From a virus (Duplodnaviria > Heunggongvirae > Uroviricota > Caudoviricetes): DNA of 5,846 nucleotides. The stretch covers positions 1-5,846 of the IMG/VR virus record IMGVR_UViG_2531839446_000024. One strand, given 5' to 3'. Positions 1,342-4,300 of the stretch are shown here, piece after piece. Each line of letters opens with the position of its first letter. The stretch's first letter is position 1. A program made the position numbers.

Positions 1342-4300
1342 TAACCGTATCGCGTTTATTGACCCGGCAAACGGGAATGAAACGCCGATGTTTGTGGTCA
1401 GGGAGATCAGATATTTATGAACGACGTGTTCCTGAAGCGCCTGACGGCCCCGACCATTACCAGTGGTGGAAATCCACCGGCATTTTCCCTGACATCAGAC
1501 GGAAAGCTGACCGCTAAAAATGCGGATATCAGTGGCAGTGTGAATGCGAACGCCGGGACGCTCAACAATGTCACGGTAAATGAAAACTGTACGATTAAGG
1601 GCATGCTGGAGGCGACTCAGGTCAGAGGTGACTTCGTTAAAGCTGTATCCAAATCATTCCCGAAACAGGCTGGTACGTGGGGTAACACGGAAACACCAAA
1701 CGGGACGGTTACAGTCACCATCAGCGATGATCATAACTTTGACCGTCAAATCATTATTCCGCCCATTATCTTTAACGGAATAGCGTATAGCTATCCGGGA
1801 AGTGGTAATAACCCGGGAGGTACAAGATACACGGGTTATGGTTTTGAAGTTCGCAAAAACGGTGTATTAATCGCATCCAGAGAAACTAAAGGGGCCATTC
1901 CCGGTAGCTACAGTGCGGTTATTGATATGCCGAGTGGCAGGGGAAGCGTCACTCTGGAGTTTAAGGTTTTCCATAAAGGCAATCAGCGGGCAGGTAATAT
2001 CACCGACTGTACGGTGATTGTGACCAAAAAAGCCGCTTCCGGCATCAGTATTCGTTGAAATTGTTATAACCCATATAAGGGCACCAGAAATGGTGCCTTT
2101 TTTATTGCAGAAAAGCGAGAGGTAATTATGCGTAAACTTTATGCCGCCATTTTTTCCGCAGCCATCTGTCTGGCCGTATCCGGTGCGCCTGCATGGGCAT
2201 CTGAACATCAGTCCACGCTGAGCGCGGGGTATCTTCATGCCTCGACGAACGTTCCCGGCAGCGATGATCTGAACGGGATTAACGTGAAATACCGTTATGA
2301 GTTTACGGACACACTGGGGATGGTGACGTCATTCAGCTATGCAGGAGACAAGAATCGCCAGCTGACCCATTACAGCGATACCCGCTGGCATGAAGATTCC
2401 GTTCGTAACCGCTGGTTCAGCGTGATGGCGGGGCCGTCTGTGCGCGTGAATGAATGGTTCAGCGCGTATGCGATGGCGGGTGTGGCTTACAGCCGTGTGT
2501 CGACTTTCTCCGGGGATTATCTCCGCGTAACTGACAACAAGGGGAAAACGCACGACGTGCTGACCGGAAGTGATGACGGTCGCCACAGCAACACGTCTCT
2601 GGCGTGGGGGGCTGGCGTGCAGTTTAACCCGACCGAATCCGTGACCATTGACCTTGCTTATGAAGGTTCCGGTAGTGGCGACTGGCGAACGGATGCATTT
2701 ATTGTTGGTATCGGATACCGTTTCTGACAACAGACGCCGATTTATCTTCTGTAAATATTGTTATGATACGCAGGTTCATCCACCTTATGGGGTGAACTGC
2801 GTTTGAGGAAACGTAAAGTTACACTGTCCTGAAGCCCGTGGCGTCACTGCTGCGGGCTTTTTTTATTGGTGGAAAAGTATGACTGTAAAAATTTCTGGCG
2901 TGCTTAAAGATGGCACAGGAAAACCAGTACAGAACTGCACCATTGTGCTGAGGGCCAGACGAACCAGCAGCACGGTGGTGGTGAACACGGTGGCCTCAGA
3001 AAACCCGGATGAAGCCGGGCGTTACACAATGGACGTCGAGTATGGTCAGTACAGCGTCAGTCTGTTGGTGGAGGGATTTCCGCCGTCACACGCCGGGATT
3101 ATCACCGTGTATGAGGGCTCAAAGCCGGGCACACTGAATGATTTTCTCGGCGCCATGGCGGAGGAGGATGTCCGGCCGGAGGCACTGCGTCGTTTTGAAC
3201 TGATGGTGGAAGAAGCAGCGCGTCACGCAGAGGAGGCGAAGAAGAATGCCGGAGAGGCAGAGACGTCCGCGAGGAATGCCGGCATATCAGCCAGTAAGGC
3301 GGAAGCGAGCGCCGCAAATGCTGATACTTCAGCAGAGGATGCATCGGAGTCAGCCCGGCAGGCGGCAGAAAGTGCAGCCTCAGCAAAGCAGTCAGAGGAT
3401 GCGTCCTCGTCCTCGGCTTCTGCGGCCGCTCAAAAAGCCAGTGAGTCATCACAAAGTGCAGCAGAAGCTGAATTGTCAAGAAAGACGGCAGAAAGTGCAG
3501 CCGGTAATGCATCCAGGGATGCGACGACCGCAGCAGAAAAAGCCCGGGAGTCAGCAGAAAGCGCACAGTCAGCGGAACAAAGCAGGATAGCGGCGGAAGA
3601 GGCCGTAAACCGAATCCCCACCGTGGTGGGACCTCCCGGGCCAAAGGGGGAACAGGGGCCCGCGGGTCCTCAGGGGCCGAAGGGTGATAAGGGAGAGCGC
3701 GGTGACACCGGCCCTGTCGGGGCAACCGGCGAACGGGGACCGGCAGGTGATGCTGGTCCGGCAGGCCCGCAGGGGCCGAAAGGTGACATGGGAGAGCGGG
3801 GAGAGACCGGTCTGACGGGAAATGCAGGTCCACAGGGTCCAAAGGGAGATACCGGTGCGGCAGGCCCGGCAGGCCCACAGGGACCGAAAGGAGAAACAGG
3901 TGCGGCTGGCCCGGTGGGGGCAACCGGACCTCAGGGACTGAAGGGCGACCCGGGGGAGACACAAATCCGTTTTCGTCTGGGGCCGATGAGCATTATTGAG
4001 ACAAACAGCTATGGCTGGTTCCCGGATACAGATGGTGCGCTCATCACCGGACTGACCTTTCTTGACCCCAAAGATGCCACACAGGTTCAGGGGATGTTTC
4101 AGCATTTGCAGGTCAGATTTGGTGACGGGCCGTGGCAGGATGTTAAGGGGCTGGATGAAGTGGGCAGTGATACAGGCAGAACAGGAGAATGACATGAACA
4201 TACTAAAAAAACTTATGCAGCGTCTGTGCGGTTGCGGAAAGCATGATGGCTGTGAACACGGGCAGTTACTTACAGCACAACTGCGACTGGGACCGGCAGA

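What the first reader, a model, noticed from the sequence alone, without database searches (positions are those of the whole stretch)
3629..3961. Side tail fibre carries 37 uninterrupted collagen-like Gly-X-Y triplets
A perfect 111-aa Gly-X-Y run rich in GPQ/GPK/GER/GET triplets is directly visible in the translation. Such tracts form trimeric collagen-like helices in phage fibres, and their 9-bp-periodic DNA is prone to slippage and recombination, giving fibre-length variants between related prophages. The GC-rich repeat also generates the long spurious minus-strand and alternate-frame ORFs seen in the track.
Basis: seen in the sequence. Interest (0 to 1): 0.45.

Follow-up and report, generated by a model that had tools for sequence, protein, structure and literature searches.

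The report
Known collagen-like prophage side tail fibre
The 37 Gly-X-Y triplets are real and sit in the side tail fibre gene of a lambda-like prophage of pathogenic E. coli, but this protein family (EPclA) and its collagen stalk were described and tested experimentally in 2012, so the finding is correct and ordinary.

Summary
Confirmed. ORF 2879-4192 (+, 437 aa) has exactly 37 uninterrupted Gly-X-Y triplets at aa 251-361, which is nt 3629-3961.

It is already known. The protein is an EPclA-type prophage side tail fibre with the domain order PfN, PCoil, Col (111 aa), PfC. It is 94% identical to VT1-Sakai H0004, with 109 of 111 collagen residues the same. Ghosh et al. 2012 showed that EPclA is a trimer with a collagen triple helix (Tm 42 °C, stalk about 30 nm). 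They also tabulated length variants.

The window is the start of contig ADUS01000052.1 from E. coli RN587/1 (O157:H8 EPEC). The gene order is J, lom, stf, an 89-aa PfC gene, then nleB2.

The variation hypothesis holds. EPclA-type homologues with the same ends carry 4 to 37 triplets, and 37 was the commonest form sampled.

The mechanism needs correcting, because the DNA is not a 9-bp tandem array. One-triplet changes occur at a single 9-nt duplication (3858-3876). Larger deletions join dispersed in-register repeats that encode GP(A/Q)-GPK-G(D/E) or GPV-GAT.

Both long minus-strand ORFs are composition by-products. The plus-strand alternate-frame ORF lies in PCoil, not in the collagen tract.

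The parts
2879..4192 (+). stf gene: EPclA-type collagen-like prophage side tail fibre, 437 aa
   Evidence: ORF list and translation. Pfam PF08400, PF01391 and PF06820. 94% aa identity with no gaps to VT1-Sakai H0004. The same 437-aa architecture is given in PMC3368898, Table 2.
2879..3298 (+). PfN: N-terminal collar/attachment domain, aa 1-140
   Evidence: PF08400 matches aa 1-133 at E = 4e-65. Aa 1-93 match the Ur-lambda gpStfN collar domain, PDB 9E7M/9MGH, at E = 2e-46. The domain limits are those used by Ghosh et al..
3299..3628 (+). [quoted passage not shown]
   Evidence: The composition is visible in the translation. The trimeric alpha-helical state was measured for EPclA PfN-PCoil fragments (PMC3368898).
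3629..3961 (+). Col: 37 uninterrupted Gly-X-Y triplets (111 aa), the collagen triple-helix stalk, about 32 nm long
   Evidence: Experimental triple helix with Tm 42 °C and an EM stalk of about 30 nm for the 111-residue EPclA tract.
3965..4156 (+). PfC: C-terminal globular domain, aa 363-426, which trimerises and nucleates the helix and probably binds the receptor
   Evidence: PF06820 matches aa 363-426 at E = 4e-34. Trimerisation of isolated PfC and fast refolding of Col-PfC are published (PMC3368898). The receptor-binding role is inferred only.
3655..3958 (+). Five dispersed imperfect direct repeats encoding G-P-(A/Q)-G-P-K-G-(D/E): 3655-3697, 3754-3796, 3817-3859, 3862-3904, 3916-3958, spaced 99, 63, 45 and 54 nt
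   Evidence: the repeat finder family D1. The junctions of shorter alleles fall on these repeats.
3858..3876 (+). The only perfect 9-nt tandem duplication in the tract (CGGCAGGCC, 2.1 copies). This is where one-triplet gain or loss occurs, giving 36- and 38-triplet alleles.
   Evidence: Tandem Repeats Finder. DNA alignment with L062 (36 triplets) and with L029 and L038 (38 triplets).
3824..3914 (+). 45-nt (5-triplet) unit repeated twice at 84% identity. Losing one unit gives the 32-triplet allele.
   Evidence: Tandem Repeats Finder. Alignment with L032.
4194..4463 (+). Downstream 89-aa gene consisting of a second PfC-type domain
   Evidence: Called as a gene with PF06820 in all four contigs that carry this locus. 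35% identical to the fibre's own PfC. Its counterpart in Sp5 (ORF68) was non-essential (PMC5155283).
3102..3962 (-). Spurious 286-aa minus-strand ORF running through PCoil and Col
   Evidence: That frame has no stops in the tract. 78% of synonymous recodings of the tract also leave it open. Variable sites follow the codon positions of the + frame. Part of it, 3102-3878, is called as a gene with no Pfam hit on the public contig.
3569..4354 (-). Second spurious minus-strand ORF (261 aa) crossing the collagen tract

Best explanation
The tract is the collagen domain (Col) of an EPclA-type side tail fibre of a lambda-like prophage in E. coli RN587/1.

How the fibre is built:
- Three chains assemble into one fibre.
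- The N-terminal PfN domains join the collar around the tail tip.
- The Ala/Ser/Glu-rich PCoil segment forms a trimeric coiled coil.
- The 111-residue Gly-X-Y run forms a collagen triple helix about 32 nm long. It is zipped up from the C-terminal PfC trimerisation domain.
- The stalk holds PfC, the presumed receptor-binding knob, away from the tail.

Stability without hydroxyproline would come from Pro at the X position (17 of 37 triplets) and from nine (K/R)-G-(D/E) charge pairs.

How length changes: always in whole triplets, by two routes. One triplet is gained or lost at a single 9-nt duplication. Larger deletions occur between short in-register direct repeats that encode the recurring GP(A/Q)-GPK-G(D/E) and GPV-GAT motifs.

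What is shown and what is inferred:
- Shown here: the sequence, domains, synteny, purifying selection, length variants and their junctions.
- Shown in the literature for EPclA cloned from O157:H7: the trimer, the triple helix and the EM shape. The one EPclA-type protein I compared is 94% identical to the window's.
- Inferred: collar attachment, receptor binding by PfC, the molecular route of deletion, and any fitness effect of stalk length.
For: - Exactly 37 triplets at 3629-3961.
- Pfam PF08400, PF01391 and PF06820, in that order.
- Gene order J, lom, this gene, 89-aa PfC gene, nleB2, at the end of a prophage next to potBC, pepT, roxA and phoQP.
- N-terminus matches the Ur-lambda Stf collar domain, PDB 9E7M/9MGH, at E = 2e-46.
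- 94% identity to VT1-Sakai H0004, with 109 of 111 residues identical in Col. Ghosh et al. list the Sp15 fibre ECs2941 as EPclA with 437 aa, PCoil 116 and Col 111; that H0004 is this gene is my own equation of Sp15 with VT1-Sakai.
- EPclA is trimeric, its CD spectrum is collagen-like with Tm 42 °C, isolated PfC trimerises, and the EM stalk of about 30 nm fits 111 residues.
- Purifying selection: variable sites 7/10/46 on codon positions 1/2/3, and all Gly invariant, in 34 alleles.
- Length variants of 4-37 triplets sharing the same flanks, RIPTVV and QIRF.
- DNA junctions mapped.
- 18 distinct deletion events carry 101 residues of junction homology. Random in-register placement gives 45.6 ± 11.2, and none of 20000 trials reached 101.
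- The four longest exact repeats in the tract (11 nt) lie 99, 99, 108 and 198 nt apart. Those distances match the deletions that give 26-, 25- and 15-triplet alleles.
Against: - No experiment was done on this particular allele. It has two substitutions in Col (R304M, P354L); P354L was seen in no other of the 34 same-length alleles.
- The upstream J gene is split by two frameshifts in this 454 assembly, so the prophage may not make virions.
- No receptor is known for PfC.
- My AlphaFold model of PfC was unusable, with mean pLDDT 50.
- The deletion mechanism rests on junction homology alone. No rate was measured.
- The predominance of 37 triplets may be inflated, because the loci returned were those most similar to the query.
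Confidence: 0.9

Rival explanations
1. The tract is a hypermutable 9-bp tandem repeat, a VNTR or contingency locus. Fibre length would then change often by replication slippage within a lineage.
For: - All length differences are multiples of 9 nt.
- 36- and 38-triplet alleles arise at one 9-nt duplication, 3858-3876.
Against: - Tandem Repeats Finder finds only 2-copy 9-nt arrays, and the longest exact repeat is 11 nt. Codons are diversified.
- 34 distinct alleles differing by up to 8% in protein all keep 37 triplets.
- Four independent assemblies carry the identical protein. In the stretches compared, the three other than the source contig differ from the window by one SNP from position 1498 onward.
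- Ghosh et al. list 111 residues for all 7 EPclA copies in EDL933 and for 6 of 8 in Sakai.
Confidence: 0.07
2. The gene is an inert relic of a defective prophage. The collagen tract is conserved only because the copy is recent, not because it works in this strain.
For: - J is split into two ORFs by a +1 and a -1 frameshift about 80 nt apart.
- Frameshifted stf alleles are common elsewhere, for example those marked EPclA*, L074, and P0109, a cluster of 37 sequences.
Against: - The stf ORF here is intact.
- The family shows a strong excess of third-position change and invariant Gly.
- The J frameshifts are in a 454 Titanium assembly and may be sequencing errors. A sister contig with the identical stf has an intact 1165-aa J.
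Confidence: 0.15
3. It is a bacterial surface collagen-like adhesin, like streptococcal Scl or Bacillus BclA, made by the lysogen rather than a virion part.
For: - Weak sequence match of the Gly-X-Y run to BclA, PDB 1WCK.
- One homologue carries the database name 'SclE'.
Against: - No signal peptide or anchor is visible in the translation.
- The N-terminus is the Stf collar domain.
- The gene sits in the tail module.
- Antibody to the related EPclB fibre labels the tail ends of Sp5 particles.
- The 'SclE' name sits on a Shigella-type protein that carries PF08400.
Confidence: 0.02
4. One of the long minus-strand ORFs (3102-3962 or 3569-4354) is the real gene.
For: - Both are long. Part of the first, 3102-3878, is called as a gene on the public contig.
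Against: - No Pfam family.
- Open minus-strand frames are expected from the composition alone: 78% and 23% of synonymous recodings have no stops in those frames.
- Substitutions follow the + frame.
Confidence: 0.01

Closest known systems
EPclA (EHEC prophage collagen-like protein A), e.g. ECs2717, ECs2941 and Z0982 of E. coli O157:H7 (Ghosh et al. 2012, PLoS One 7:e37872)
   Same: - Same length (437 aa).
- Same domain order and limits: PfN 1-140, PCoil to 250, Col 251-361, PfC 363-426.
- Same 111-residue uninterrupted Col.
- Same preferred triplets: GPK, GPQ, GPA, GER, GET.
- Same position after J and lom.
- 94% identity to the VT1-Sakai copy.
   Different: - The host is an stx-negative O157:H8 EPEC, not EHEC.
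- Two substitutions in Col: R304M and P354L.
- This allele has not itself been tested.
Bacteriophage Ur-lambda side tail fibre, gpStf (PDB 9E7M/9MGH; Sci Adv 2025, PMC12617516)
   Same: - Homologous N-terminal collar domain, E = 2e-46 over aa 1-93.
- Same gene position downstream of J and lom.
- Trimeric fibre with a proximal coiled coil.
   Different: Lambda Stf has no collagen tract. Its shaft is coiled coil, with a T4 gp37-like distal part that binds OmpC. Here the distal part is Col plus PfC, and the receptor is unknown.
EPclB fibres of short-tailed Stx2 phages (933W L0121, Sp5 ORF67/ECs1228, phi24B gp61)
   Same: - The Col-plus-PfC module is shared at about 94% nucleotide identity, from window position 3643 onward.
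- An 89-aa PfC gene follows in both.
   Different: [quoted passage not shown]
- It sits on a podovirus-type tail and is essential for infection.
Bacterial collagen-like proteins Scl1/Scl2 (Streptococcus pyogenes) and BclA (Bacillus anthracis)
   Same: Hydroxyproline-free Gly-X-Y triple helix nucleated by a globular trimerisation domain. Repeat number varies between strains. (From the discussion in PMC3368898 and my own knowledge.)
   Different: Those are cell- or spore-surface proteins with signal or anchor sequences and different X/Y preferences. Only the Gly-X-Y part is alike.

Membership tests
EPclA (Ghosh et al. 2012) | N-terminal PfN domain (PF08400) | tested here: met
   PF08400 matches aa 1-133, E = 4.3e-65, 218 bits against a cut-off of 26.6.
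EPclA (Ghosh et al. 2012) | Low-complexity PCoil region between PfN and Col, nearly free of Leu, Val and Ile | tested here: met
   Aa 141-250 are Ala/Ser/Glu-rich, with only a handful of L, V or I, as seen in the translation. The region aligns without gaps to VT1-Sakai H0004. The coiled-coil state itself was not tested.
EPclA (Ghosh et al. 2012) | A single uninterrupted collagen domain | tested here: met
   One run of 37 triplets and no second run.
EPclA (Ghosh et al. 2012) | C-terminal PfC domain (PF06820) | tested here: met
   PF06820 matches aa 363-426, E = 3.9e-34.
EPclA (Ghosh et al. 2012) | Encoded in the tail module of a lambdoid prophage | tested here: met
   J, lom, stf, PfC gene, then an effector. 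The full tail module (tape measure, M, L, K, I, J) is seen upstream in sister contig L001.
EPclA (Ghosh et al. 2012) | Forms a trimer with a thermally stable collagen triple helix | not testable with these tools
   Published for EPclA cloned from O157:H7. The EPclA-type protein I compared (VT1-Sakai H0004) is 94% identical to the window's.
Collagen triple helix repeat (PF01391) | Gly at every third residue over many triplets, scoring above the Pfam gathering threshold | tested here: met
   37 of 37 triplets. 66.1 bits against a cut-off of 27.2.
Lambda-type Stf side tail fibre | N-terminal collar domain homologous to gpStfN | tested here: met
   PDB 9E7M chain Ta, E = 2.1e-46, aa 1-93. Described as the collar in PMC12617516.
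Lambda-type Stf side tail fibre | T4 gp37-like distal receptor-binding part (Pf2 repeats) with a downstream Tfa assembly chaperone | tested here: not met
   No PF03406 or Tfa family among the Pfam hits. The distal part is Col plus PfC, and the next gene is an 89-aa PfC paralogue. So it attaches like Stf but is not a lambda-type Stf over its whole length.
Tandem-repeat contingency locus (VNTR) | Many near-identical head-to-tail DNA units | tested here: not met
   Only 2-copy 9-nt arrays and one 45-nt unit repeated twice at 84% identity. Longest exact repeat 11 nt.

The most novel reading that the evidence does not exclude
The recurring GP(A/Q)-GPK-G(D/E) motifs could act as built-in, in-register break-and-join points. 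They would let lambdoid phages repeatedly reset side-fibre stalk length, from about 3 to 33 nm, and swap the Col-PfC module between long-tailed and short-tailed phages. Stalk length would then be selected to match the depth of the host's O-antigen or capsule layer. The junction bias and the independent recurrence (two different 19-triplet alleles) are shown here. Any adaptive value is not.
Probability: 0.15. Interest if true: 0.45.

Novelty: already known. Interest (0 to 1): 0.12.

Why it matters
This adds little. The protein family, its collagen triple helix, its fibre shape and its length variants were published in 2012. Related fibres have since been placed on virions.

The modest new points are these:
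- A map of where length changes happen: one 9-nt duplication plus dispersed in-register repeats.
- Evidence that the same length has arisen more than once.
- Evidence that the Col-PfC module is shared with short-tailed Stx2 phages, with the boundary at the start of the tract.

For annotation, the tract explains a false minus-strand gene call on the public contig.

Tried and rejected
1. AlphaFold2 on the PfC domain (aa 362-437, 12-row alignment) gave mean pLDDT 50 and pTM 0.34. That is too poor for a fold search, so none was run.
2. The genome-contig scan was of little use. It returned one E. albertii copy with 37 triplets, generic Gly-X-Y proteins from unrelated phyla, and lambda-like stf 5' ends in assemblies of unrelated taxa.
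3. My first two junction alignments were wrong. One search had a poor gap model and extracted a third of the tract because of a unit error. One search is the valid one.
4. The protein search listed no 437-aa representative, probably because 90% clustering puts these under representatives of other lengths. Its length counts are therefore not allele frequencies.
5. I could not list the paralogous stf copies in the source genome itself. For within-genome comparison I rely on Table 2 of PMC3368898.
6. I considered and rejected the minus-strand ORFs as genes, a surface-adhesin reading and a VNTR reading (see the rival explanations).
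Full report
**Observation**

The window has a 437-aa ORF at 2879-4192 on the + strand. Its longest Gly-X-Y run covers aa 251-361, which is nt 3629-3961. The commonest triplets are GPK (5), GPQ (5), GPA (4), GER (3) and GET (3). Pro fills the X position in 17 of 37 triplets. The tract is 70% G+C against 51% for the window. Pfam Collagen scores 66.1 bits against a cut-off of 27.2, and the tract matches solved collagen chains.

**Origin**

An exact-protein look-up found the gene on four NCBI contigs. One of them, ADUS01000052.1 (GCA_000188875.2), has the gene at the same coordinates, and its first 5846 bases are identical to the window. ADUS00000000 is E. coli RN587/1, an stx-negative O157:H8 typical EPEC sequenced on 454 Titanium (PMC3715677).

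**Context**

The gene order is as follows:
- J C-terminal part, 28-1344 and 1417-2058
- lom, 2128-2727
- this gene, 2879-4192
- an 89-aa gene with a PfC domain, 4194-4463
- an SseK/NleB-family effector, 4639-5619

Sister contigs show the full lambda-type tail module upstream. Downstream they show the chromosomal genes potBC, pepT, roxA and phoQP. This is the right-hand end of a lambdoid prophage.

**What the protein is**

Pfam gives PF08400 (prophage tail fibre N-terminal, aa 1-133), Collagen, and PF06820 (prophage tail fibre C-terminus, aa 363-426). Residues 1-93 match a 94-residue 'Tail fiber protein' chain of PDB 9E7M/9MGH at E = 2e-46. That chain is the collar domain of the Ur-lambda side fibre gpStf. 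Twelve copies of it ring the tail tip and carry four trimeric fibres (PMC12617516). So 'side tail fibre' is supported by synteny and by homology of the attachment domain.

The distal part is not lambda-like. There are no Pf2 repeats, no gp37-like tip and no Tfa chaperone.

The whole architecture equals EPclA of Ghosh et al. 2012 (PMC3368898):
- PfN 1-140
- PCoil to 250
- Col of 111 residues
- PfC 363-426
- 437 aa in total

EDL933 has seven such copies and Sakai has eight. The window protein is 94% identical, without gaps, to the VT1-Sakai fibre H0004, and 109 of 111 Col residues are the same.

**How it works**

Ghosh et al. showed the following for EPclA:
- Recombinant EPclA is a trimer.
- PCoil and PfC are each trimerisation modules.
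- The Col-PfC fragment has a collagen-type CD spectrum that melts sharply at 42 °C and refolds at once on cooling.
- Rotary-shadowed molecules are dumbbells. The collagen stalk is about 30 nm long, which fits 111 × 0.29 nm = 32 nm.

The tract here keeps the features they linked to stability without hydroxyproline: Pro at X, and nine (K/R)-G-(D/E) pairs. The related two-collagen fibre of the short-tailed Stx2 phage Sp5 labels at the tail ends and is essential (PMC5155283). Attachment through PfN and receptor binding through PfC are inferred for this protein.

**Coding strand and the extra ORFs**

I compared 34 distinct 37-triplet alleles from IMG/VR. Variable sites in Col fall 7/10/46 on codon positions 1/2/3 of the + frame, and every Gly is invariant.

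Within the tract, two of the three minus-strand frames have no stop codon. Resampling synonymous codons leaves those frames open in 78% and 23% of trials. So minus-strand ORFs 3102-3962 and 3569-4354 are by-products of composition. The public contig even carries a gene call at 3102-3878 (-) with no Pfam hit.

The two alternate + frames have 2 and 5 stops in the tract. The + alternate ORF 3246-3590 lies in PCoil.

**Length variation**

The refutation condition, that all homologues carry 37 triplets, is not met.
- Among 120 cluster representatives, EPclA-type proteins with the same RIPTVV and QIRF flanks carry 4 to 37 triplets (4, 5, 8, 14, 15, 16, 19, 20, 21, 25, 26, 32, 36 or 37). Relatives with a peptidase-S74 C-terminus carry 9 to 38.
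- Among complete genes in the IMG/VR loci, 37 triplets occurred 41 times, 27 five times and 38 twice. Single cases had 36, 32, 19, 9 and 4, and some of these are truncated or frameshifted. That sample favours close relatives of the query.
- In sequenced phages, an evenly spaced sample showed ungapped 37-triplet copies (including phage 434), +9-nt copies, and YYZ-2008 with 144 nt fewer.
- Ghosh et al. had already listed Col lengths of 63, 78, 81, 111, 114 and 144 residues.
- 2609 of 5426 complete E. coli genomes have a match, with up to 15 places per genome. All 40 best hits there are ungapped over 1314 nt, and so are the best hits among phages.

**Mechanism of variation**

The DNA is not a 9-bp tandem array. 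Tandem Repeats Finder reports only two 2-copy 9-nt arrays and one 45-nt unit repeated twice. The longest exact internal repeats are four pairs of 11 nt, lying 99, 99, 108 and 198 nt apart. The repeat finder shows five imperfect copies of a 43-nt unit encoding GP(A/Q)-GPK-G(D/E), spaced 99, 63, 45 and 54 nt.

DNA alignment gave these junctions:
- The 36- and 38-triplet alleles lose or gain one copy of the 9-nt duplication at 3858-3876.
- The 32-triplet allele lacks one 45-nt unit.
- The 8-triplet allele joins CCTCAGGGGCCGAAGGG (3668) to its imperfect copy at 3929.

At the protein level, 38 shorter alleles fit a single deletion from the 37-triplet form at 90% identity or better. They collapse to 18 distinct events. 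Their junctions carry 101 residues of flanking identity. Random in-register placement gives 45.6 ± 11.2, and none of 20000 trials reached 101.

Two different 19-triplet alleles exist. One lost triplets 7-24 and the other lost triplets 18-35. The same length has therefore arisen independently.

This fits slippage or recombination between short in-register repeats. The route itself is inferred.

Stability is considerable. The four assemblies carry the identical protein. In the stretches compared, the three other than the source contig differ from the window by one SNP from position 1498 onward. Alleles differing by up to 8% in protein also keep 37 triplets.

**Module sharing**

Short-tailed Stx2 phages (933W, VT2-Sakai and many others) match the window from 3643 onward at about 94% identity. 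That is from 15 nt inside the tract through PfC. Relatives with a peptidase-S74 C-terminus share PfN, PCoil and most of Col. The collagen tract thus sits at module boundaries, as Ghosh et al. argued in general terms.

**Verdict**

The first concerns the repeat mechanism. The second concerns which extra ORFs the tract explains. The feature is already known, so interest is low.

Noticed in passing
window 1300-1420 (J gene, ORFs 28-1344 and 1417-2058): The J gene is split. Compared with an intact 1165-aa J on sister contig L001 and with lambda J (from memory), the window has one extra G near 1315 and one T fewer (TT to T) near 1394. About 80 nt are therefore read in another frame, with a stop at 1342-1344. 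The assembly is 454 Titanium, so this is either sequencing error or a real pseudogene. Upstream of about 1500, L001 carries a diverged J allele, so the comparison there is approximate.
   Followed up: partly
window 4194-4463 (+), with its frame open from 4062: An 89-aa gene right after stf is little more than a second PfC domain, 35% identical to the fibre's own. Its reading frame stays open for 130 nt back into stf. Two database proteins of 494 aa (P0022, P0042) are stf fused to this ORF. From the residues at the fusion point I infer a 1-nt loss in a T run, which I did not see in DNA and which this window lacks. The Sp5 counterpart (ORF68) was non-essential and was proposed as a reservoir for tip variation (PMC5155283).
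   Followed up: partly
window 4639-5619 (+): A 326-aa SseK/NleB-family type III effector (PF24688, E = 8e-171) sits just beyond the tail fibre genes. RefSeq annotates the matching gene in O55:H7 and O157:H7 genomes as nleB2 (arginine glycosyltransferase). This is effector cargo at the prophage end.
   Followed up: partly
window 3645-3649 (G5 run at the start of the collagen tract): A 1-nt loss in this G run recurs in relatives: L074, and probably P0109 (a cluster of 37 sequences), P0110 and P0115. It turns GPP-GPK-GEQ into GPP-GPK-GNR-GPR-VLRGRR... and truncates the fibre. Several Stx2a phage records are also 1 nt shorter across 3480-4110. This may be a frameshift hot spot, separate from the in-frame length changes.
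   Followed up: partly
window 3102-3878 (-): The public annotation of contig ADUS01000052.1 calls a 258-aa gene here with no Pfam hit. It is the antisense of PCoil and Col and looks like a false gene call.
   Followed up: yes
loci L088-L100 (genome-contig scan): Stretches encoding a protein 80-84% identical to stf residues 1-110/117, then diverging, occur in assemblies labelled Leeuwenhoekiella, Pseudomonas, Desulfosporosinus, Neobacillus, Chromatium, Vibrio, Marinifilum and others. Many are on short or low-coverage contigs. This looks like phage lambda DNA contamination of those assemblies.
   Followed up: no
protein P0094: A 486-aa protein with PF08400, Collagen and peptidase S74 domains is 82% identical to the query over 79% of its length. 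It is labelled 'collagen-like surface-anchored protein SclE [Streptococcus pneumoniae]'. This is probably a mislabelled or contaminated record of a Shigella/E. coli prophage fibre.
   Followed up: no
window 3938-3940 (codon 354, CTG): The last GPQ-GPK motif reads GPQ-GLK here. Leu at this X position was found in none of the other 33 same-length alleles. It also lowers the DNA match between the first and last repeat copies.
   Followed up: partly
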